Of a stretch of 64,000 nucleotides of DNA, positions 657 through 32,897 are shown one piece after another; the first letter of the stretch is position 1, and each line of letters starts with the position of its first letter. Source of the DNA: a virus (Duplodnaviria; Caudoviricetes); IMG/VR virus record IMGVR_UViG_3300037851_000671, positions 64,001 to 128,000 of that record; one strand, 5' to 3'. The notes beneath the pieces are model-generated. The model made no database searches. It was not told where the DNA came from and saw nothing but the letters and a program-made list of their open reading frames with translations. Made by a program: the position numbers and the translations under genes.

Positions 657-1190
657 ATGAAAGAGGTACATACCAAAGGTATCCCACATAGAAAGCTTAG
701 GCCCATCATTCAGGATTTCAAAGACAAAATCCGAAACAATGATGTGGTCAAAGACATGTTCAAAGAGCATGGCGTAAGCATGGATGAACTTGATCTTGTG
801 CCGATGTGTTTTGCTCATATACCTGTCACGGCTCGTACAGATCATGGCGTCATCTATCTAAACGTTGACATGTTAAAAGATGGAAATATAGAAGACAAGG
901 ATGACCATTTCATTGTCCATGAGATGACCCATTACCTTCAACAAACAAATGGCACCAAGCCCACGCCAGGGTCAACAGATGATACCTATCTTGATAACCC
1001 TGCCGAACAAGAAAGCTTCCAGAACCAAACCAAGTACATCTCAGAAACAGACGGCCCAGAAGAGGCCAAAGAGTACGTTGATGATTTGTTGGAACACTTC
1101 GAGGTTCCTAAAAAAGACCGCAAGAAAAGAGAGAAACAACTGCTGGATTTGGCTAGATCTGTCGGTGTTGTTATGCAAAGACATGGATAA
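657..1190 (+). CDS. HExxH zinc metallopeptidase-like protein
   Basis: FIVHEMTHYLQ (HExxH) followed by a candidate third-ligand Glu in NPAEQES. Confidence 0.65.
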   Translation: MKEVHTKGIPHRKLRPIIQDFKDKIRNNDVVKDMFKEHGVSMDELDLVPMCFAHIPVTARTDHGVIYLNVDMLKDGNIEDKDDHFIVHEMTHYLQQTNGTKPTPGSTDDTYLDNPAEQESFQNQTKYISETDGPEEAKEYVDDLLEHFEVPKKDRKKREKQLLDLARSVGVVMQRHG

Positions 1191-1205: not shown

Positions 1206-2810
1206 ATGAGCTGCATTCCTGTTGTCTTCCGTAGTTTTGACTATGCATTGAGCGGTTTGAAAGCCGTTTCTCCGCGTGGTGATGGCTATACTATTGACGT
1301 TGAGTGGTACAAGTCATACGTTACTCCTCAAAATTACGAGGTTTACTACAACATCTATTACGCCACAAACAACACGGATACTTTTTCAGAGGGTATCAAG
1401 TTCATATCAAACTCCCCAAGCCTTAGCATAACCCTACGTGATGGTTTCAAGCCAGGGGACGTATACTACTTTGCTGTCAGGGCCACAGCATTTCCTCCTG
1501 GCACTTTCAACTTTGCCCTCTTGCCAGTAGCCGGGGATAACCTTGCCATCCTGCCAGAAACAGCGTTGTCGCAAAACATCTCTAGCACTGACCTACAGAT
1601 ACCAGTTATAGATGCTACAGGTTTTCCAGGGGCTGGAACTGTACAAATTGGCACTGAGATCATCGGATACTCTGCCGTTGACCTTGTGGACAACACTCTG
1701 ATACTAGCTAACCCTGGTCAAAGAGGGCTTTATGGTACACAAGCCAGGTCACATACCACAGACGGGTATGATGGATACAACTATACCGATGGTTTCGTGA
1801 GGTTTTTCTCTGGATTTGAGGATAAAAATTCTGTCATCGGTCTTGGTATAAACAAATTCTCGATGCAATACCCTCGCACCAACGCTGATGGGTACAAGGA
1901 TAGGGTTGATGTTGTGACTTCAGCCAAGAATCTAGCTGCCAATGAGACTGAGTACACAGATTTTCCGATGTTTGATTACGCCGGATACCGCAGAACGAGT
2001 CCAAAAGACCTGTTGTCAGGAAAATGCCTCGGCACTTATTTCGGAGGAGAACTTGGATGCGCCGATGGATACGATTCTCTTGGCGGTTTGCGTGGAGTTT
2101 CTGTCCAAGATCAGATGTTGCAACGTCAAGAGATGCTTTTGGAAACTGATGGCGATGATTGCATCCTGTTCAAGCGCATGTGGGAAGGAAAAGTATCCAA
2201 ACATTACGATTCAACCAAAGAGAACACTGCCTACAGAGGTTTGGACAACCATGGAACATCATTGGTTGGAGGATACTCTCAGTATTTCTATCCAAGGAAC
2301 TCAAGTGGGCGTATCAAGGTTCGTTTTTCACCAATCAAAGAGAATTTTGAACGCCAAGAAGCTGGTTTGGAAAATGTTTTCACAGGATCTTGTTGGACAT
2401 TGGTAGTTCCAGTCCTTCAGGATGGAGATTTCATCATTCGTTTCAACAAAGACGGAACGGAAGAGTGGAGATATGAGATTTTGGACGTAGAGCGCAACAA
2501 AACTCTACTCATGGATAGCGGTTTACAGAAATTCACCGTAGCTCGTGTCAGGAAAACAGACCCAATATGCCAGGTGAGGGTAATTCGTGACACCAGCATG
2601 TTCCCTAAGGAGCTTTTGACTGGAATTGGTATGGTTGCCGGCCCCGGTGGCATTCCAGCTCACATGCACAGGATTGTTGTATCACAAGATAAAATAGTGA
2701 GCGTTTCTCAAATTAATCAAACAACATCAATCGCCCAAGGTCATACGCATGACGTAGTTGGGGGTGAAATATTAGAATCTCTTGGGCACACTCATAAAAT
2801 TACTTTGTAA
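1206..2810 (+). CDS. Neck/head-tail connector protein with N-terminal FN3-like and decoration domains and a His-rich C-terminus
   Basis: FN3-like pattern (VEWYKS..YNIYY..YYFAVRAT). Phage decoration pattern TALSQNISSTDLQIPV-GFP-GTVQIGTEII. C-terminal half (LLETDGDDCILFKR..GTSLVGGY..GDFIIR..RYEILDV) resembles myovirus head-completion proteins. Lies upstream of the tail genes. Confidence 0.55.
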   Translation: MSCIPVVFRSFDYALSGLKAVSPRGDGYTIDVEWYKSYVTPQNYEVYYNIYYATNNTDTFSEGIKFISNSPSLSITLRDGFKPGDVYYFAVRATAFPPGTFNFALLPVAGDNLAILPETALSQNISSTDLQIPVIDATGFPGAGTVQIGTEIIGYSAVDLVDNTLILANPGQRGLYGTQARSHTTDGYDGYNYTDGFVRFFSGFEDKNSVIGLGINKFSMQYPRTNADGYKDRVDVVTSAKNLAANETEYTDFPMFDYAGYRRTSPKDLLSGKCLGTYFGGELGCADGYDSLGGLRGVSVQDQMLQRQEMLLETDGDDCILFKRMWEGKVSKHYDSTKENTAYRGLDNHGTSLVGGYSQYFYPRNSSGRIKVRFSPIKENFERQEAGLENVFTGSCWTLVVPVLQDGDFIIRFNKDGTEEWRYEILDVERNKTLLMDSGLQKFTVARVRKTDPICQVRVIRDTSMFPKELLTGIGMVAGPGGIPAHMHRIVVSQDKIVSVSQINQTTSIAQGHTHDVVGGEILESLGHTHKITL

Positions 2811-3693
2811 TGACACATGTACAGTGTCAAGTATGGTAATAATGATGTATTGCCTTATGAAACGCATTGAGAGTTTATTGAACATTGACGCACAACAGCT
2901 TACAGAAGACTATAAAAATCTTGGTTCTTTGAGAGAGATTGCCAAAAAATACAAAACTAGTCACAACGCTGTTGCTGGTATGTTTACGCGATTTGGAATT
3001 GTCTATCGTTCTAGAAACTGGAAAAGAACAGATGTGAATGATTGTTTTTTTGATATGGATATGTTAGATGAGAGGTCCGCCTATTGGGCAGGTTTTATAG
3101 CAGCCGATGGTTGTGTTTACAAGAAAACTCTCAGAATATCGCTATCTGAAGAAGATTTGAGTCATCTAATCAAATTCAAAGATAATATTCAATATGCCGG
3201 TAACATATTAAAAAGCGTGAATAAACTGAGTCGTCACAATAAAAAATGGAAAAACGTTAATATGGTAACCATTAGTATAACATCAGCGCAAATAGTAGAA
3301 GCGCTTCTGTGTCTTGGTATAACAGAACGCAAAACCAAAACACTTGAATTTCCGAACTTGCCAGATCATTTAATTAAACACTTTTGCAGAGGATATTTTG
3401 ATGGTGATGGCAGCTGGTCATTTTGGAAACCGCGAACCAGACCAAATCATTCAAAACAGCTTATGTTTTGCTTGAGAGGAACCGAAAAATTCTTGAATGT
3501 GTTTAACGAAAATCTTGTTAGAGGGTGTGGTTTGGACCAAAACAAACTTAGAAAAAAAACAGACGGCGATGGAAAAACACACGTTCTAGCATACACAGGC
3601 AATATAATTTGTGAGAGAATAGCCAAATGGATGTACGATGGCTCTTCTACATATTTAGTAAGAAAATTTGAAAAAGCTCTTGGACATACTCAC
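2779..3693 (+). repeat. Imperfect 17-nt direct repeat flanking the endonuclease (2779-2795 and 3677-3693)
   Basis: CTCTTGGGCACACTCAT vs CTCTTGGACATACTCAC: 14/17 identical. All three differences are at third codon positions and both copies encode LGHTH. Confidence 0.85.
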
Positions 3694-3711
3694 ATCGGTC
3701 TTCTTATTTGA
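2857..3711 (+). mobile_element. Free-standing double-motif LAGLIDADG homing endonuclease with N-terminal helix-turn-helix
   Basis: Motifs YWAGFIAADGCV and FCRGYFDGDGSW, plus the HTH-like SLREIAKKYKTSHNAV. Visibly AT-richer than the flanking genes. Start placed at ATG 2857 (alternative 2833). Confidence 0.9.
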
Positions 3712-3738
3712 TCTAACCTAATATTTGGACATAAGGCT

Positions 3739-6700
3739 ATGGCAAGAGATAAATGGCAGGGTAGCACACGAGTTAGAGAAGGTGGATTTCTTGTAACACA
3801 TAAGCAAGATTTCCTTCTGCACGTCCAAGGTTCAGCTGACATAAGCCAGGCCAGAACCGATTGGCGTCATACTGCCGATCAAATCGACATGAACGGTCCT
3901 CTTCCCATGCCTTTTGATGCCCCAGACGTTCAGCGTACACTTGAGAAAATTGTTGATTTGGTTGGGCAAGGATTCGTTACCATCGGTGATGGTTATATGG
4001 TTGATGAATACGGCATTGGCACTGATGGCTATGCTGCTAAAGACCTGTACGATGCCTTTCAATCCGCTTTTGCCAAGAGAAGGATTGCTACCACGGGCGG
4101 AATCATTGTCGTAAAGTCTGGTGACTACATTCTAAAAACCACTGTGGTTGTTCCAGCCGGATACACCATTTTTGCCGAACCAAATGGTGCAAGAATCACT
4201 AGTGAAGTTGTTGGTGGTCCAGCTTTCAAGTTCTCGGCATCCACAGATACCATAGATATCGGAGATTCTACCAACCCAGAGGTTCAAACAAAGCAAAGCC
4301 GTATGTGGAACCTTACCATATTCGACAACAGATATGGAAACGTTGCTTTTGGTGGTCCATCAGCTCCATCTAAACCACTTGTTGAAATTGATCAAGCAGC
4401 AAACGTTTTCATTGATATGTGTATGTTTGTTGGTAGGTACCTTGCCTCTGGTGGAAGTGTAACAACCTCAGCTATTGCCGTATCTGGGGTGGCAGGGCCA
4501 TTTTACCCAACAATCTTGCATGTACACAAATCTATTTTTGATGTTGTTTCCACGGCGGTAGCATTCAACCCGATTATTACATCAACCTGTGAGTTGCGTG
4601 TAGAGCAATGCAGAGCAAGAACATTTACAACAGCAATTACAGATTCTTTTGTTCGCACCATTATCGGCAAGATATTTGTGCATAACAACTATCATATTTC
4701 TTTTACACCAACAGGATCAACGGCCGGTTCGTTCATCAATATAATGAACCCACTAATCTCTGATGCCGCTGATGGTTTTGTTAGTGTTATTGGGAACCAA
4801 GGCGGACTTAGAATACCAGACCTTGCCTCAACAAATAACATAGCAAAAAGCCATTTCATTCTTGACTCTCGCCCAACACCATGGGCTTACAAGCTATTGG
4901 ACATCGGCAATGGTTGGGGAAGCGTAAATGGAAACTCTTGGTACATTACTGTTGGTGATGGTATACACTCAACAGGAGATTTCACAGGAGTAGACGCTCT
5001 AGATCGTGTAAATGCTTTGTGTAACACCGAGTTAACTGCTTTGTTTTCAAGAACAGAGCAGGTAGTTATTGTAAACCCAGGCTCATACACAACTACCACC
5101 GCTCTAAATATAGGAAAGTTGATTGGTAACGTTTCTCCAAACGAAACACTGGGAACAAGCAAGAAAGTCATAGTTAGTCTCGGGTCAAACTCTCAGATAG
5201 CCTCTAGCGGCGTATATGACAACATGATTGGTAAGGCCGAGAACATTGATTTCTTTGCATCTGGTAATTTCCAAAGGATACGATCCGATCTTAACGGTGT
5301 TCAGGACCGAAACCTGTTCAAGAACTGCAACTTCACCGATGTAAGCATTTTGATTGACAACTATGAAGGATCTGTTGTTAGCAACTGTCATTTCACACAG
5401 ACAGGAACATACGAAGATCAAATTGGTCTCGTTGTATCTTCTGATAACCTATCTATTGTTGAGGGTTGTGTATTCGACGGCTATGGATATGCACTTTCTC
5501 AATCTTCTTGGGATGGAATGACCGTCCTGAGAGATTGCGCATTCACACAGCACTTCAACTATGACGGATATCAGAACGTAATCAGGAATATAGATCCAAT
5601 ATATGATCAGTCAGTTTACATTTCAATAGGAAACCTGACCAGCAAGACAATAATTGATAATGTTACAGTAAATAGCGGTTCATACCCAATTAGCTCCGCT
5701 ATGCTTGATATGGTTCCAAAATATATCGTTGTAAAAGGAAACGAATCAGTAGCAATTAGAAATAGTCGTTTCATGGGACCAGATCAAGTAACTTCTACTG
5801 GTCCAATTGTAAACTGCTTTGTAGCTCCCGGTATCTCTGCCACAATTACAGATAATGAATTCATGGGAGCTTTACCGCTACACATCTCTGAGTTCAATCT
5901 GGTAAATGGGTTTACTCTTGGTGGTGATTTGAATGTGTCTAACAATCAAATAAAACACTATCTTGGTACCATGACAGCCGTGGCATCTGGAATGGTTATT
6001 GACATAAGCTTGGCAGGCGGTTTGTTCTACTCAAACTGTGATGGATACGATGGTTACGATGGGTATGGTGGAGATGGTTACGATGGATACGGAACAGACG
6101 GATACATACCAGTCACCGATCCTTTCGACGGACAGTTCCCATTCAGCAGCGTGGATGTAACCAATAACAGAATCATTGGACTGTACCGTGGAGGTTTGGC
6201 GCCGGTTCAGTATGTAACATCAAGTTATACAAACCTAGCTTTATGCCAAATCTATGCACCAGGGTGGTCTGTAAACTTCAATGAGAATGAAGTGGTTTAC
6301 GCATGTGATGACAGCCCTCTTCCACCAGGAATATACAGCCAATCTGCGGTATTTATCAACAACGCCAGAGCGATGCCGATCTTTTCCAAAGCCGGGGTAA
6401 AAAACAATGGCATATATCATAAGTGTGATGGATACCAGGGACAATTCTTGAGCGGGCTATATGTCATAACCGATGTTTTGCAAGCTCAGGGCAATAACTT
6501 CCTTTCTTGGTATTGCACTAACCAAGACGTTGAGGACGGATACTTGTTTAGGGCTTATATCAGAACCGAAACACATAGAGCTGGCTCATTGATACAGAAC
6601 AATAGTTTCAATGCCAACGTTGAAAATTCAATGAGTTATCCGATATACATAGACACAACATCTGATGGTTACGGAGCCATCAGCGAAAACTATTTTGATT

Positions 6701-6810
6701 CCACTATGAGTGGTTCAATAAAAACAGGCGATGGATTTGGACACTGGCTATTGACAGACAGAAACTACGCACCAACCACAAGCGGTTACTTGGTACGTGT
6801 TGATTTCTAA
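3739..6810 (+). CDS. Neck-proximal fibre/tailspike with two tandem right-handed beta-helix modules
   Basis: Two beta-helix cap motifs (VTIGDG..GGIIVVKSGDY and ITVGDG..VIVNPGSY), Asn/Ile-rich repetitive strands, an N-terminal HxAxxI..DVQxxL linker and 13 DGY motifs. Confidence 0.65.
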   Translation: MARDKWQGSTRVREGGFLVTHKQDFLLHVQGSADISQARTDWRHTADQIDMNGPLPMPFDAPDVQRTLEKIVDLVGQGFVTIGDGYMVDEYGIGTDGYAAKDLYDAFQSAFAKRRIATTGGIIVVKSGDYILKTTVVVPAGYTIFAEPNGARITSEVVGGPAFKFSASTDTIDIGDSTNPEVQTKQSRMWNLTIFDNRYGNVAFGGPSAPSKPLVEIDQAANVFIDMCMFVGRYLASGGSVTTSAIAVSGVAGPFYPTILHVHKSIFDVVSTAVAFNPIITSTCELRVEQCRARTFTTAITDSFVRTIIGKIFVHNNYHISFTPTGSTAGSFINIMNPLISDAADGFVSVIGNQGGLRIPDLASTNNIAKSHFILDSRPTPWAYKLLDIGNGWGSVNGNSWYITVGDGIHSTGDFTGVDALDRVNALCNTELTALFSRTEQVVIVNPGSYTTTTALNIGKLIGNVSPNETLGTSKKVIVSLGSNSQIASSGVYDNMIGKAENIDFFASGNFQRIRSDLNGVQDRNLFKNCNFTDVSILIDNYEGSVVSNCHFTQTGTYEDQIGLVVSSDNLSIVEGCVFDGYGYALSQSSWDGMTVLRDCAFTQHFNYDGYQNVIRNIDPIYDQSVYISIGNLTSKTIIDNVTVNSGSYPISSAMLDMVPKYIVVKGNESVAIRNSRFMGPDQVTSTGPIVNCFVAPGISATITDNEFMGALPLHISEFNLVNGFTLGGDLNVSNNQIKHYLGTMTAVASGMVIDISLAGGLFYSNCDGYDGYDGYGGDGYDGYGTDGYIPVTDPFDGQFPFSSVDVTNNRIIGLYRGGLAPVQYVTSSYTNLALCQIYAPGWSVNFNENEVVYACDDSPLPPGIYSQSAVFINNARAMPIFSKAGVKNNGIYHKCDGYQGQFLSGLYVITDVLQAQGNNFLSWYCTNQDVEDGYLFRAYIRTETHRAGSLIQNNSFNANVENSMSYPIYIDTTSDGYGAISENYFDSTMSGSIKTGDGFGHWLLTDRNYAPTTSGYLVRVDF
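6040..6105 (+). repeat. Tandem DGY peptide array DGYDGYDGYGGDGYDGYGTDGY
   Basis: Six DGY units written with varied synonymous codons (GGA/GGT/GGG, TAC/TAT, GAT/GAC). Confidence 0.95.
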
Positions 6811-7328: not shown

Positions 7329-10300
7329 ATGACAGTATATCCACAAGCCATAGATGATGACAAAACAATAATCAGAATCGATGACAACCTTTCAGATCTT
7401 GGTGGTATCTCAATCAACCAACTCAGAGAAGCTGTTTTCGCTTTGGAAAAAACCATTGGTACGATGGTTTTTGGTGCCAAGTCTTCCTTGACAGATAGGC
7501 TTGCGGTATCTCTGAATGACGATGGAACAATTCGTACAGAGGCGCTTCAAGCTGTCGGTTTGGCCACACTCCCAATCACAAATTCTCAGGTTGCACCTAA
7601 TGCCGGCATTCTTGAATCAAAACTATCTCTATCTTATTCAACCGGAGACCTGAACACTCGTTTGGTATCTCAATTGAATCAGATTAACAACCTGAATGAC
7701 CTGTTCATAGCCAACAGATCAAATCTTGGCATACACACTGCTGGCGGACAGTTTTTAGTTGATGGTTCTACTCCAGCAAGACACGTAGCCAGCCAGATAG
7801 ACATCAACGCAGTCCCATTTGACGCAAGAGATGCTGCATTTGTGTGGACAGGTATCAAGGATAAATATGGAAATCTGCGTAGCGCCACCCAGGTTTCCCA
7901 GGCCATACAACAAGTAAATGACGACCTTGTAAATCATGAGAATTTGACAACGGGCGCTCACCCGGCAACTGCCATTACAGTTGATGCAACCAAATTTACC
8001 ACAATATACGGAGCCTCAAACGTTCAACAGGCTTTGGAGTTCTTGGATGACAATGAAACCAAGTCATCTGGCATTGATAGAGCAACAATGGGCTCCAATG
8101 GTATTCCAAGAGCAGCAAGAGGACAAGCTTTCAACTTGCCTGACGGATATCACATCAACGTTGTCCCACCAACACCGGTTGTTACGTTCCTGGCCCAACC
8201 AGCACACACGGCTCCAAGAGATTCTACAACAAACGGAGATGATCTTGTCAGATTTTATCCAACTGACAATACAAACTACGTTTTTGATTCTATGTTTACC
8301 AATGTTGTGGTTGGTGATATCATAAGAATCAATTACGGAAATGGAATTGAAGGTGTATTCGAAATTGCATCGATAAGGTTGGATGCTGGCCTTGAATGGC
8401 AAGTAAGGATCAATGGCTATAACCTGGCAGATGGAGCTGGTGTTGCTAGAATTGATCGTCCACGTTTTGACACAACCACAAGAGGTGCTTTTGCTGTAGC
8501 TATGGCTCCTCCAGATGTTAATCCGGATCTTGGTTGTGCTACAAATGCTTCTAGTGTGATTGTTGGCAGCCCTCGTGGTGCTGTTGCTGTTGGTGTTGGA
8601 TTTGATCCAAACCAACTAGACAAAAATCACTATGCTTTGTATCTTAGACTATACCCAACAGGTGTTCCGTCTGTTTTTGTAGACCTCCCTGGTATAGACG
8701 TAACCGGAAACCTCGGCTCAACACCGGGACACTATAATCTTGATATTGTTGTAGAGGAAACAAACAAGCAGCTTAGGAAAGCTGGTTACAACTATCGTTT
8801 CATAGCATTTGCATCAAAGGGCGAATACGGTATTATGCTTGCTGATGCAATAAATCTAGCATCATTCAGTATTATTACTGGTACTGTTGATAACACACAG
8901 GTGGTGGTTGGATCGTATATCAGTAACGTCATCGGAGATGCTACTGACGGATATGATGCTTTGGGTCTTGGCGCAACAAGGGCAGGATACGCTTCACCAG
9001 CACAGTCAACGTATACAAACGCACAAGCCGCAGCAGGGTTCAGCACAAGAATTATTGCCCCTGTAAAAAATAGAAACGGAATTATCAACGGTGTTAGAAG
9101 AGATTTTCTTGCTAATGCTGGACAAACTGGTGTAAATGATTTCTGGACAGCTACAATAACAAATACAAATGTAGATTTTGCTGCTGGAACTGTAACTGTA
9201 CAATATACGGTTGCGGCAGATTTGGCAACACAAGAACTTGCAGTTGGTAAAACATTGGTTGTGCAGCCTGTAACAACACCTGGAACCAATGTCTCTGACT
9301 ATGGACGATTCATCATCGGGAGCGTAACATATAGTGCTGGAACAACCATCATATCTGTTATCAATGGTGTTCATGGACAGGGAACGGCCATCAGTCCAAC
9401 ACTACCTGTTGGAGCACAGGTAAGGCTTTACTTCTCCAATGATTCTGTGTCTTTTGATGGTTTGAATCTCGCTGGTAACGGTGTTGATTCAAATGATTTT
9501 CATAGATATCACGAGGTATTTGTAGATCAAGACTCAAATACATTTGCTGTTGAGAGAGCCCGTATGGAAAAGGGCGGAATGACAGCAGGAAAGCTTGATA
9601 CAAATCTTTCAGGTTGGAGAATACGTCAAGTATCTCCAAAATTGAGCGGATACAGGACAGGTTCAGGTTTCAACCACTGGGTTCGTTTTGTAATCAGCTC
9701 TTGGAACCAGACAACAGGAGAGTTTACTGGCTATCTGTGTGAACCAAGTGGAACCCTTGTAACAAAAAACAAGGGACCAGTTGTTATTGGTAAGAAAAAT
9801 CATCCAGTTAGGTTCTATGATATAAGCGGTGTAAACTTTATAGACATAGAATACCGTGAAAATGACATTTCTCCTGGTGTTGTGCTTTTGCCAGACACAA
9901 CGGCAAGATATGCTGACATAGAGCTGTTCCAAAGCATGACAACAGACGATGAGGTGTTCTTATTGGCTGGTGTAAGCCATAACGTCAAAACAATCACTGC
10001 TGTCACTGACCTTAGAGAGTTTGGAACGCTTAGTGAAAGGAATTTTACAGATTCGGCTATTCGTTTCATTGAGGCTGGAGAACGTCACCTGCATGCAAAT
10101 GGTATTGTAAGAGGTTTTGAATACCAAAGCACAGTAAGAGGTTCATTGCTATTCTTTGCCGGTGGTATGGCGGTTGTCAATGGTAAATTTGTTGCCGTTG
10201 ATGCGTTGAACGTCAAAATACCAGACATCAATACAACAAGATCTACAACTGTTCAATTCTTTATTTGTGTAACAGAGCTTGGACAGTTGAAAGCTGTTGT

Positions 10301-31152: not shown

Positions 31153-32897
31153 TGGCTGAGATAGACAAACTTCTAGAAGATGCTGCGAAAATTGATGAGG
31201 CTGTCAAAGAAGAGTACCTTGATGATGTTCAAGATTTGAATCTTGACCTGAACAAGCTATACAATGATTGGATCGTTCCAATTGAAAACATACGCAGCAA
31301 GACTGTTATCAATGTAAGCGCTGGACCCAAGATCGGTAAAGAGGGCGTGATTGATGATTCTGGAGAAAGCCAAGAGCCTCAAGAAAGCCGGGCCCATGCA
31401 TTTTTGCGTGGGCTTGGAATACCTGTTGTAGCCTCTGATGGTAAGTTTTTCAATCCTGGCTTCAACCCTAAGAAAACTTCAGCTCAGCAACAGGAGATTC
31501 TATCAATCTCAGGTAATGTAGCTCAAGTCGTTAGAGTGATGCAGGCTAAAAGGGAAATAGACACCAAAGCCAGGCGTAATATATTCCGTAATGCCGGGCA
31601 AGATGCTGCGCTGTTTTCTTTGGCGTTATCATTGCCAGAGGGTCAGAAGAAATTCAACAACATGAAAGAAGGCGCTGACCCCTTGGAGAAAGATTCCCAA
31701 GAACTATCAATACCAAACCGCCATACAATCATCAACAAGGTTTACACCAAGAACGCCGATGGAAACTTTGATGCATTCAGCGAGAAAGAGACATTCAGTG
31801 TTGGCAACTCTCACATGATACGTCCTTTGACAACTGATCCTCTTATCTGCTCTACTGTAAGAACACGTGACAGACAGCTTTGTGTACCATTCCCTGAAAA
31901 CAACAATGATACCTATAAATCACAGAAGCTAAAGCTTAAAAGGTGTGGACTTGAGCTTATCATCAGGCTCAGGTTGAAGCAGAGGTCTGTGCCCGAGGAT
32001 GCTGCGGCAGCTCTATCTTTTCCAGAAATCAAGGATGTGATAGGTGATAACACTATGGGTATTTCCACACAGCAACTAAAGCAATTGAAAGCGGCTCTTG
32101 GGAACCTGGATCCATATGCCCCAAGCGTTGATGACATGATCAATGCCAGCAACTTTATTGAGCTTAGGACCCTTGATGAGTATGTCAGGACTCTAAAAGG
32201 TGTTATCATTATTTATGCTCAAGCTTTGGATACTATAAAACGGGTAAGTAGTGAAATAACATGGGTTCCGTTTTGCCGTGACCGTGGTCCAGAAGGTGGA
32301 ACACAGATGATTCCCGGTTTCGCTGTTCCAAGAAAATTCCTTAAATCATGGGAGCTTGAGAGGCGGATTATTGGCCTAAAAGCCAGGGCGCAAATAGCAA
32401 AGAACCAGCAGAATCTTGGTTCTGTAACCGATGATGGCCAACCATCAGATGAAGACAAGATAGATTACAGTGACTTTGTATTCTCTCAGCACAACAATGT
32501 GGTAAGCACTTTTGATAATGAGTTAGCACAAGCGGAACAGCAAAAGAAACAACTAGAGACAGAGGCCAGTGATGCCATCAGAACTATTGAGATAGTGATG
32601 GGTGAGGTTTCTGGACTTGGCCTAGTTGACATATTGGCAGTTCATATTGCTCTATGGTCACTTGATATCTCTGTTTTGCTTAGTCTTCTTGATGATGCCG
32701 CAGCTGAAAGACTGTGGAATTTGAAGTATCTACGTACTCAAGAAGTTCAGGATAGAAAAGATAACGGATCTGATATTGAAACTGCTTTGAAAAAGTTTGA
32801 TGACAGGGTTTATAGCATTCTTTCGTATTCAGACATGATCTTCGACATTGTAACTGGAAATTACAAGTCAGGAATCGGAGACGTACCAAGAGGGTAA
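31152..32897 (+). CDS. Hypothetical baseplate-region protein
   Basis: 581-aa ORF coupled by a TAATG overlap. No motif recognised. Confidence 0.6.
   Translation: MAEIDKLLEDAAKIDEAVKEEYLDDVQDLNLDLNKLYNDWIVPIENIRSKTVINVSAGPKIGKEGVIDDSGESQEPQESRAHAFLRGLGIPVVASDGKFFNPGFNPKKTSAQQQEILSISGNVAQVVRVMQAKREIDTKARRNIFRNAGQDAALFSLALSLPEGQKKFNNMKEGADPLEKDSQELSIPNRHTIINKVYTKNADGNFDAFSEKETFSVGNSHMIRPLTTDPLICSTVRTRDRQLCVPFPENNNDTYKSQKLKLKRCGLELIIRLRLKQRSVPEDAAAALSFPEIKDVIGDNTMGISTQQLKQLKAALGNLDPYAPSVDDMINASNFIELRTLDEYVRTLKGVIIIYAQALDTIKRVSSEITWVPFCRDRGPEGGTQMIPGFAVPRKFLKSWELERRIIGLKARAQIAKNQQNLGSVTDDGQPSDEDKIDYSDFVFSQHNNVVSTFDNELAQAEQQKKQLETEASDAIRTIEIVMGEVSGLGLVDILAVHIALWSLDISVLLSLLDDAAAERLWNLKYLRTQEVQDRKDNGSDIETALKKFDDRVYSILSYSDMIFDIVTGNYKSGIGDVPRG

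What the first reader, a model, noticed from the sequence alone, without database searches (positions are those of the whole stretch)
2779..3711. Homing endonuclease that replaced the neck gene's 3' end and absorbed the old C-terminus in frame
Seen: the neck protein ends ES-LGHTH-KITL*, and the endonuclease ORF ends KA-LGHTH-IGLLI*. The two 17-nt copies differ only at three synonymous third positions. Established: some free-standing homing endonuclease genes (well known in fungal mitochondria) insert into a gene's 3' end carrying a recoded replacement end that the nuclease no longer cuts. Inference: the nuclease target is the GHTH-coding end of the neck gene, one copy is the displaced original and the other the replacement, and the displaced tail is now translated as the nuclease C-terminus. 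The synonymous changes may protect against self-cleavage.
Basis: partly seen in the sequence, partly recalled or inferred. Interest (0 to 1): 0.75.

Follow-up and report, generated by a model that had tools for sequence, protein, structure and literature searches.

The report
Homing endonuclease carrying a spare gene end
A selfish nuclease gene sits in the last codons of a jumbo-phage virion gene, supplies that gene with a substitute end and reads the cut-off original end as its own tail; this arrangement is documented in fungal mitochondria, and my searches found no description of it in phages.

Summary
The 534-aa gene (1206-2810) ends LGHTHKITL*. The LAGLIDADG endonuclease gene (2857-3711) ends LGHTHIGLLI*. 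The 17-nt copies (2779-2795, 3677-3693) differ at three synonymous third positions and occur nowhere else in the window.

Comparison with relatives supports the core reading:
- More than 100 metagenomic homologues of the 534-aa protein end VLGH[TS]HxIIL(P)*. Nuclease-free relatives run straight into the homologue of gene 3739.
- The nuclease belongs to a small subfamily, and every member with known context (7 lineages) lies directly after this gene.
- One member (L004/L005) ends VVQTVLGHTHDIVLP*, a complete host-gene tail. Another (L021) carries a decayed tail.
- L004 and L005 are about 80% identical in the host gene. They become 100% identical from the start of tail copy 1 through the nuclease and copy 2, which indicates a recent lateral transfer of the whole cassette.

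Not shown: the cleavage site, and that the synonymous changes protect against self-cleavage. Ordinary divergence of two tails under purifying selection explains the synonymous pattern equally well. The tail shows no sign of a role in the nuclease. The 'neck' label has only moderate fold support.

The closest precedent is the fungal mitochondrial mORF with a C-terminal duplication. I rate this a new variant of a known kind, of moderate interest.

The parts
1206..2810 (+). Host gene: a 534-aa virion protein. It has an N-terminal fn3-like domain, a central neck-protein-like domain, and a C-terminal region with three HxH motifs that ends LGHTHKITL*.
   Evidence: ORF. 235 homologues, mostly 525-545 aa. 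AF2 model pLDDT 82.6. Fold matches to fn3 and to phage neck proteins. No Pfam hit and only one weak partial PHROG match.
2779..2795 (+). Repeat copy 1 (17 nt), which codes (S)LGHTH of the host gene.
2781..2810 (+). Tail copy 1, LGHTHKITL plus the stop codon: the end the host gene now uses. It fits the family consensus.
   Evidence: Position +2 is I (89/118), +3 is T (3/118), +4 is L (85/118), and a stop follows four residues in 43/118.
2811..2856 (+). Spacer between the host-gene stop and the nuclease start. It holds the alternative in-frame ATG at 2833 (MVI..., the same nine bases as in L005). No terminator-like site was found; one weak sigma-70-like consensus match (9 of 12, 2810-2837) lies here, with the region's match count at the shuffle level.
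2857..3711 (+). Free-standing double-motif LAGLIDADG homing endonuclease gene (284 aa) with an N-terminal helix-turn-helix domain.
   Evidence: G+C is 0.34-0.39 here against 0.42-0.47 in the flanks.
3082..3117 (+). LAGLIDADG motif 1 (YWAGFIAADGCV). The catalytic Asp84 codon is at 3106-3108.
   Evidence: sequence. G79, A83, D84 and G85 are invariant in 65 homologues.
3382..3417 (+). LAGLIDADG motif 2 (FCRGYFDGDGSW). The catalytic Asp184 codon is at 3406-3408.
   Evidence: sequence. G179, D182, G183, D184 and G185 are invariant.
3677..3693 (+). Repeat copy 2 (17 nt), which codes (A)LGHTH in the nuclease frame.
3679..3711 (+). Tail copy 2, LGHTHIGLLI plus the stop codon: the displaced relic of the host gene's end, read as the last 10 residues of the nuclease.
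   Evidence: Gly at +2 is seen in 0 of 118 functional tails. The last four residues have pLDDT below 50 in the nuclease model.
3712..3738 (+). Native intergenic spacer before the next gene. It contains a motif (3720-3736) that is also conserved upstream of the homologous gene in relatives, with or without the nuclease.
3739..6810 (+). Downstream 1023-aa gene. Its homologue directly follows the host gene in nuclease-free relatives.

Best explanation
A free-standing LAGLIDADG homing endonuclease gene is lodged inside the last 10-15 codons of a conserved virion gene of a freshwater jumbo phage. The mobile unit is a cassette made of a substitute gene end with its stop codon, the nuclease gene, and whatever remains of the resident end.

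Shown:
- The host gene is completed by the upstream copy.
- The downstream copy keeps the resident position just before the next gene and is read in frame as the nuclease's C-terminus, so the nuclease borrows the host gene's old stop codon.
- The same layout exists in other lineages.
- In one pair of relatives the cassette moved recently between phages that differ by 20% in the host gene.

Inferred: the nuclease cuts nuclease-free alleles in or next to the conserved LGH[TS]H-coding end. Double-strand-break repair from an occupied genome in a mixed infection copies the cassette in, with the crossover at the start of the substitute tail. The occupied allele escapes cutting for two reasons: copy 2 has lost its upstream half-site, and copy 1 differs in sequence. 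After invasion the relic and eventually the nuclease decay.

The absorbed tail is most likely a passenger with no role in the enzyme.
For: (1) Both tails are host-gene ends. The family consensus is GVVQEVLGH[TS]H[TSD]IIL(P)*.
(2) LGHTH is not a feature of LAGLIDADG proteins. The generic C-terminus is YLDRKFEK plus 5-20 variable residues. Of the 120 closest homologues, only P0122 ends with a host-gene tail, and P0122 lies at the same site.
(3) In L004/L005 the host gene ends GVVQEVLGHTHTIVLP*, the nuclease ATG follows at once, the nuclease ends RKLD-VVQTVLGHTHDIVLP*, and the 3739 homologue starts 17 nt later.
(4) The L021/L022 nuclease ends ...VVGFLDDDCSIILP*, a decayed tail in frame.
(5) Site exclusivity. 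Every subfamily member with known context lies directly 3' of this gene: window, L004/5, L007, L016, L021/22, L035/40, L096-98. 71 of 80 IMG/VR loci have no nuclease there.
(6) Recent transfer. L004 and L005 are about 80% identical across the host gene. They are 100% identical from the Q codon of copy 1 through 864 nt of nuclease, copy 2 and about 130 nt more, then 90-98%.
(7) The two tails diverged under purifying selection: L005 has 8 synonymous against 2 non-synonymous codon differences (P < 5e-5), and the window has 3 against 0 (P = 0.009). This fits tails that evolved as working gene ends in two different phages.
(8) Decay series. Copy 2 in the window has Gly at a position that is I, L or V in 118/118 homologues. 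The L016 nuclease is truncated to its last 94 residues. One cluster representative has lost the second catalytic Asp.
(9) The window nuclease looks intact: both catalytic Asp residues are present and the AF2 model has pLDDT 93.5.
(10) G+C dips by 8-10 points over the nuclease.
(11) No intron was found.
Against: - No cleavage data exist. T4 free-standing nucleases cut hundreds of base pairs from their own genes (PMC2988022), so the target could lie elsewhere in the host gene or in the next gene.
- No close relative of the window phage exists in the databases (best host-gene match 62% aa). Which window copy is foreign and which is resident therefore cannot be tested by similarity to a sister genome.
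- In L004/L005 both copies lie inside the identical tract, so that pair does not separate them either.
- The junction is uncertain by about 6 codons. The IVKxxL segment seen after RKF[DE] in several subfamily members resembles the host VVQxVL, but it also resembles the native C-terminal helix of unrelated LAGLIDADG proteins, for example P0207 RKFEKVKEFC.
- Occupied alleles differ sharply from their nearest empty relatives in the last 150 nt. This is not specific: the same drop occurs in empty-empty pairs.
- Nuclease and host-gene identities roughly track each other across lineages. Long vertical residence with only occasional transfer is therefore possible.
Confidence: 0.72

Rival explanations
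1. Same origin, but the window copy is now a resident, non-mobile or domesticated nuclease gene. It is inherited vertically, and the duplicated tail is a frozen scar with no present activity.
For: Nuclease and host-gene identities are of similar size across lineages (41-61% against 52-66%). No nuclease-free allele was seen in the two freshwater samples that hold this DNA, although those data were contigs only. Copy 2 is already decaying. Degenerate members exist.
Against: Both catalytic Asp residues and all family-invariant residues are kept, and the fold is predicted with high confidence. A sister member was transferred recently. Presence is patchy among relatives.
Confidence: 0.15
2. The duplication arose in place, when the nuclease gene inserted and repair copied the resident tail twice. 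The downstream copy has been kept since then by selection, because the tail matters for the nuclease protein.
For: The copies differ almost only at synonymous sites. This would also follow if both were under protein-level selection after an in-place duplication. The tail is in frame in three lineages.
Against: The tail is destroyed or absent in most lineages: L021 has lost GHxH, and L035, L016, L007 and L096 have no recognisable tail. The window copy carries a residue never seen in working tails. The tail is the least confident part of the nuclease model. In L005 the synonymous divergence is near saturation (14 of 45 nt) while the nuclease genes of L004 and L005 are identical, which fits two old lineages joined recently.
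Confidence: 0.08
3. The nuclease is encoded in a group I intron or an intein that interrupts the host gene near its end, so the true gene product ends with copy 2 after splicing.
For: Many homologous phage LAGLIDADG genes are annotated as intron or intein proteins.
Against: No Rfam intron reaches E 1 in 2300-4300. The host ORF is complete with a consensus end and a TAA stop before the nuclease. The nuclease is in a different frame (+1) and has its own conserved start. No Hint or intein domain was found. Splicing from before copy 1 to copy 2 would make the in-frame consensus end of copy 1 a coincidence.
Confidence: 0.02
4. Chance resemblance of a short peptide.
For: The shared stretch in the window is only 17 nt.
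Against: Zero matches are expected in shuffles. A 15-residue host tail sits on the sister nuclease, with the same position and frame.
Confidence: 0.01

Closest known systems
Fungal mitochondrial mobile ORFs (mORFs) with C-terminal duplication: Allomyces macrogynus atp6 and Glomus sp. atp6, atp9, cox2 and nad3 (PMC3630166, which cites Paquin et al. 1994)
   Same: A LAGLIDADG (or GIY-YIG) gene is inserted in the 3' part of a conserved gene. The cassette brings a foreign C-terminal segment that completes the gene, and the native C-terminus is displaced downstream of the nuclease. The nuclease ORF is in phase with neighbouring coding sequence in some cases. The two copies are more alike as protein than as DNA.
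   Different: Here the host is a jumbo bacteriophage and the gene is a virion protein. The duplicated piece is very short (5-15 codons, against 17-90 or more). The substitute end has its own stop codon and the nuclease its own start, so the fusion is nuclease plus relic rather than gene plus nuclease. No sister genome is available to show that copy 2 is the native one.
Free-standing homing endonucleases of T4-like phages (seg and mob genes; 'intronless homing', PMC2988022)
   Same: A nuclease gene outside any intron, placed between conserved phage genes in the same orientation, apparently without its own promoter. It spreads with co-conversion of flanking DNA, and its presence among relatives is patchy.
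   Different: The T4 enzymes are GIY-YIG or HNH, sit in intergenic DNA, and cut hundreds to thousands of base pairs away. They do not carry a substitute gene end or absorb a host tail. Here the enzyme is LAGLIDADG and the insertion lies inside the coding end.
Nuclease genes at recombination boundaries in ICP1 phages (PMC10448857)
   Same: A sharp switch of sequence identity between related phages occurs at a homing endonuclease gene next to an essential gene, as seen between L004 and L005.
   Different: Different nuclease families. A text search of that paper for 'duplicat', 'recoded', 'fused' and 'C-terminal' found no gene-end duplication or in-frame relic.
Aeromonas phage Aeh1 mobE in nrdA and 'fractured genes' with split inteins (PMC2988022 names the Aeh1 mobE endonuclease only in a figure legend; its insertion in nrdA is recalled from the literature and was not read here; PMC2677866 abstract)
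   Same: A free-standing nuclease gene inserted inside a coding sequence without killing the gene.
   Different: In those cases the gene is split in two and both halves are needed. Here nothing is split: the cut-off end is replaced and the old one is redundant.

Membership tests
LAGLIDADG homing endonucleases (double-motif, monomeric) | Two LAGLIDADG motifs, each ending in a catalytic acidic residue | tested here: met
   Motifs YWAGFIAADGCV (3082-3117) and FCRGYFDGDGSW (3382-3417). D84 and D184 are invariant in 65 homologues. Pfam PF14528 E 3.3e-9, above its cut-off.
LAGLIDADG homing endonucleases (double-motif, monomeric) | Two alpha-beta-beta-alpha-beta-beta-alpha half-domains | tested here: met
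   AF2 model pLDDT 93.5. Secondary-structure order: H72-84, E85-88, E91-97, H98-110, E118-122, E134-142, H144-152, then H170-184, E185-190, E201-208, H210-224, E242-247, H249-260. Profile hits to solved LAGLIDADG enzymes: 2dch_X 3.8e-10, I-AniI 1.3e-7, I-HjeMI 5.3e-7.
LAGLIDADG homing endonucleases (double-motif, monomeric) | Site-specific double-strand cleavage of a long target | not testable with these tools
   Needs purified protein and substrates.
Free-standing (intronless) homing endonuclease gene | Own ORF, not inside an intron or intein | tested here: met
   No Rfam intron. The host ORF closes with TAA at 2808-2810. The nuclease is in another frame with a conserved start. No Hint domain.
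Free-standing (intronless) homing endonuclease gene | Present or absent at the same site among related genomes | tested here: met
   Subfamily nuclease directly after the gene in 6 of 80 IMG/VR loci, plus L004/5, L096-98 and the window. It is absent in 71 of 80 loci.
Free-standing (intronless) homing endonuclease gene | Lateral spread with co-conversion of flanks | tested here: met
   Met for a sister member only. L004 against L005: about 80% identity switches to 100% over the cassette, then tapers. Not testable for the window copy, because no close relative exists.
mORF-type gene-end replacement (fungal mitochondrial type) | Host-gene C-terminal segment present on both sides of the nuclease gene, with the upstream copy completing the host gene in frame | tested here: met
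mORF-type gene-end replacement (fungal mitochondrial type) | Downstream copy is the native one (closer to the sister genome) and the upstream copy is foreign | tested here: inconclusive
   Position next to the native spacer and next gene, together with relaxed constraint on copy 2, favour this. No sister genome exists for the window. In L004/L005 both copies lie in the transferred tract. The comparison of occupied alleles with their nearest empty relatives is confounded by a generally variable gene end.
Group I intron-encoded endonuclease | Ribozyme core flanking the ORF | tested here: not met
   cmscan of 2300-4300 at E up to 1 gave only a spurious snoRNA hit.
Phage neck (head-to-tail) proteins, for the host gene | Fold of a neck, stopper or terminator-type subunit | tested here: inconclusive
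   Residues about 276-460 align to phage 812 neck 8q01_S (Z 10.4, 143 residues), Pam3 neck 8hdr_A (Z 9.4) and the T1 stopper/terminator 9l0e_A (Z 9.2). Identity is 10-15%, TM-score by the query is below 0.2, there is no Pfam hit and only a weak partial PHROG match, and the gene neighbours look like tail fibres.

The most novel reading that the evidence does not exclude
The absorbed host-gene tail is not a passenger. By carrying the same HxH-containing C-terminal strand that the virion protein uses, the nuclease could co-assemble with that protein, or be regulated by it. It might, for example, be carried in the particle and act early against co-infecting relatives. Alternatively, the two short direct repeats could serve as a built-in route for precise excision that regenerates a working, cuttable gene end.
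Probability: 0.05. Interest if true: 0.8.

Novelty: new variant of a known kind. Interest (0 to 1): 0.45.

Why it matters
- It would carry a mechanism documented in fungal mitochondria into bacteriophages. In that mechanism a homing endonuclease can live inside an essential coding sequence without an intron or intein, because it brings a replacement for the codons it cuts off.
- It defines a LAGLIDADG lineage dedicated to one site in a virion gene across many uncultured jumbo phages. The series runs from fresh to decayed copies and includes one caught-in-the-act transfer, which makes it a natural system for studying the invasion-decay cycle.
- It offers a candidate explanation, still untested, for why the last ~150 nt of this gene is unusually variable across the family.
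- On the practical side, annotators should expect short host-gene relics fused to nuclease ORFs.
- The inferred target, a conserved sequence of about 20 bp coding LGH[TS]H, is a testable specificity for a new LAGLIDADG enzyme.

Tried and rejected
- DNA and protein searches of GenBank phages with the host gene found nothing, so no cultured relative is available.
- The Rfam search for an intron was negative.
- The promoter and terminator scan gave nothing above the shuffle level.
- 'LGH-stop' after the nuclease in L007, L016 and L035 looked at first like a tail relic. I rejected this reading. The same motif (AATATTGGGGCATTAG) precedes the next gene in the empty allele L026, and it also occurs in the window downstream of copy 2. 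It is an intergenic element.
- The sharp identity drop in the last 150 nt of occupied alleles against their nearest empty relatives (L035/L026 -30 points, L016/L019 -28) looked like proof of a foreign end. The control showed similar drops in empty-empty pairs, down to -26, so I do not use it as evidence.
- A metagenome-contig scan with the nuclease profile added no new locus.
- Sequencing runs: only the probable source sample and two 151-nt unitigs of a second freshwater sample hold this DNA. No nuclease-free allele and no joint were seen, and no RNA holder was listed.
- Longer host-gene variants (645-714 aa) were checked for inteins. Pfam found no intein or Hint domain; the only match was a weak, sub-threshold DUF7304 hit in P0033.
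- Literature searches found no phage case of gene-end replacement by a homing endonuclease. Subscription journals are not covered, so this is not proof of absence.
- Earlier notes of this scan held nothing on this feature.
- No complex prediction was run, because the report does not claim binding.
Full report
**What is in the window.**
The window is bases 64001-128000 of a 218.8-kb IMG/VR virus record. The record is estimated to be about half complete, which points to a jumbo phage. The DNA is held by freshwater metagenome runs.

Gene 1206-2810 encodes a 534-aa protein ending ...QGHTHDVVGGEILESLGHTHKITL*. After a 46-nt spacer, a 284-aa ORF (2857-3711) encodes a double-motif LAGLIDADG endonuclease ending ...YLVRKFEKALGHTHIGLLI*. 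The next gene starts 27 nt later, at 3739.

The 17-nt copies at 2779-2795 and 3677-3693 are the only matches in 64 kb, where none is expected by chance. They differ at three third-codon positions, all synonymous. The likely start is 2857: the N-terminus M-K-[RK]-x-E is shared by all relatives. ATG 2833 is an in-frame alternative that the L005 relative also shares.

**The host gene.**
The protein has no Pfam hit and only one weak partial PHROG match (E 7e-4 over residues 117-157, 'virion structural protein'). It has at least 235 metagenomic homologues, mostly 525-545 aa, many on contigs of 200-450 kb. Their C-termini are strikingly uniform: G-V-V-Q-E-V-L-G-H-[T/S]-H-[T/S/D]-I-I-L, followed by P or a stop.

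An AF2 model (pLDDT 82.6) shows two features:
- an N-terminal fn3-like domain;
- a central domain, residues about 276-460, that aligns to neck proteins of phage 812 (Z 10.4), to the Pam3 neck (Z 9.4) and to the T1 stopper/terminator (Z 9.2).

The 'neck' label is thus plausible but not secure. The neighbouring genes look like fibres.

**Is the second LGHTH a piece of that gene?**
Yes, on three grounds.
- The generic C-terminus of this LAGLIDADG group is ...YLDRKFEK plus 5-20 variable residues. None of the 118 more distant homologues ends in GHxH.
- The closest homologue, P0122 (45% identity), ends RKLD-VVQTVLGHTHDIVLP*, which is a full consensus tail of the host family. It lies in L004/L005 immediately after a homologue of the 534-aa gene that itself ends GVVQEVLGHTHTIVLP*. 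The homologue of gene 3739 follows 17 nt later.
- In the nuclease-free closest relative L001 (62% aa), the gene ends LGHTHSIIL*, and the 3739 homologue starts 31 nt later. The same direct succession holds in many other loci.

Copy 2 therefore sits exactly where the gene's end belongs.

**A site-specific nuclease lineage.**
I scanned 80 IMG/VR loci that hold the host gene. I also searched 1.84 billion protein representatives with a profile of the subfamily. Only a handful of close members turned up, with a clear score gap to the rest. Every member with retrievable context lies directly 3' of this gene: the window, L004/5, L007, L016, L021/22, L035/40 and L096-98.

Their C-termini form a series:
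- an intact host tail in L005;
- a partly decayed tail in the window, with Gly at a position that is I, L or V in 118 of 118 working tails;
- a tail in L021 with the HxH motif destroyed but ...SIILP* kept;
- no recognisable tail in L035, L016, L007 and L096.

In L016 the nuclease gene itself is truncated to its last 94 codons. One cluster representative has lost a catalytic Asp. This looks like the usual invasion-decay cycle of homing endonuclease genes.

Two further lineages, L037 and L078/79, carry unrelated LAGLIDADG genes at the same spot on the opposite strand. The site is therefore a hot spot.

**Evidence of movement.**
L004 and L005 come from two JGI metagenomes. Their identity profile is:
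- about 80% over the host gene;
- 100% from the Gln codon at the start of tail copy 1, through the whole 864-nt nuclease gene, copy 2 and about 130 nt more;
- 90-98% after that.

This is the pattern expected from recent lateral transfer of the cassette with co-conversion. It places the left crossover at the start of the substitute tail.

**How the two tails relate.**
In L005 the copies differ at 14 of 45 nt, yet at only 2 of 15 residues, and both of those residues lie at positions that vary across the family. Eight differing codons are synonymous (P < 5e-5). The window shows 3 synonymous and 0 non-synonymous differences in LGHTH (P = 0.009).

The simplest reading is that the two tails evolved as working gene ends in two diverged phages and were then brought together. 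This matches the fungal mitochondrial cases, in which a mobile ORF brings a foreign C-terminus and displaces the native one (PMC3630166).

This reading also gives a mundane reason for 'only synonymous differences'. The differences would also lower recombination between the repeats, which would otherwise delete the nuclease gene.

**What is not shown.**
- There is no cleavage evidence. T4 free-standing nucleases cut far from their own genes (PMC2988022), so the target assignment is an inference from site exclusivity, the junction and one crossover boundary.
- The window phage has no close relative in any collection searched. Which of its two copies is foreign therefore rests on position and on relaxed constraint of copy 2.
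- The junction is uncertain by about six codons. The I-V-K-x-x-L segment after RKF[DE] could be a native nuclease helix rather than host VVQxVL.
- Two leads were dropped after controls. The 'LGH-stop' behind some nucleases is a conserved intergenic motif. The divergent last 150 nt of occupied alleles is matched by empty-empty pairs.

**The tail in the enzyme.**
The nuclease model is very confident (pLDDT 93.5), except for its last residues: the last ten-residue block averages 79 and the final four fall below 50. Together with the loss of the tail in most lineages, this argues that the tail is a passenger. The nuclease simply runs on to the host gene's old stop codon.

**Rivals and verdict.**
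An intron or intein is excluded as far as sequence can tell. Chance is excluded. In-place duplication with selection on the tail is unlikely, given the decay series. A now-immobile resident copy cannot be excluded for the window itself.

Overall this is a phage counterpart of the fungal mORF gene-end replacement, built around a LAGLIDADG lineage specific to one virion-gene end. I found no description of this arrangement in phages in the open literature searched.

I rate it a new variant of a known kind. Interest is moderate, and the architecture is well supported. The mechanism of targeting and of immunity is still to be tested.

Noticed in passing
window 3720-3736; L035 about 7927-7950; L026 just after 7049: A conserved intergenic motif (AATATTGGGGCATTAG-like; AATATTTGGACATAAGG in the window) lies just upstream of the start of the gene that follows the host gene. 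It occurs in phages with and without the nuclease. It may be a late promoter or a translation signal.
   Followed up: partly
L037 (neck stop 4346, HEG -7..+775 on the minus strand); L078/L079 (neck stop 6578, +4..+771 on the minus strand): Unrelated LAGLIDADG genes (about 30-34% identity to the window nuclease) occupy the same spot after the host gene, but in the opposite orientation. The site is therefore an insertion hot spot for several nuclease lineages.
   Followed up: partly
last ~150 nt of the host gene across loci L007-L086: The 3' 150 nt of this gene is typically 5-25 identity points more diverged than the preceding 600 nt, even between nuclease-free relatives. This may be a trace of repeated end replacement, but it could also reflect relaxed or diversifying selection.
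   Followed up: partly
L096 4390-5406; many loci 2-6 kb upstream of the host gene: These jumbo phages are crowded with homing endonuclease genes. A GIY-YIG/NUMOD3 gene lies two genes downstream in L096. Further LAGLIDADG genes lie within 6 kb upstream in about a third of the loci.
   Followed up: no
L004 4979-6476: The host gene of L004 is called as two overlapping ORFs and lacks about 89 nt relative to L005 (a gap). It may be a frameshifted gene or an assembly error.
   Followed up: no
P0033, P0034, P0038, P0046, P0048, P0054, P0062, P0096 (645-714 aa); L035 neck gene: Some homologues of the host protein carry an extra segment of about 110-180 residues. Pfam found no intein or other significant family in the four tested, only a sub-threshold DUF7304 hit in P0033. 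These are not inteins by Pfam.
   Followed up: partly
window 657-1190: The 177-aa protein just upstream of the host gene contains an HEMTH (HExxH-like) motif. It has no Pfam or PHROG hit. It may be a small metallopeptidase-like virion or assembly protein.
   Followed up: no
window 1206-2810, residues about 484-530: The C-terminal part of the host protein holds three invariant HxH motifs (H486/H488, H513/H515, H528/H530). From memory, HxH motifs in phage fibres and spikes bind iron. This was not tested here.
   Followed up: no
window 32739-32867, minus strand: A weak tblastn match (E 3e-4, 44% over 43 residues) to a LAGLIDADG protein. It may be a remnant of another nuclease gene.
   Followed up: no
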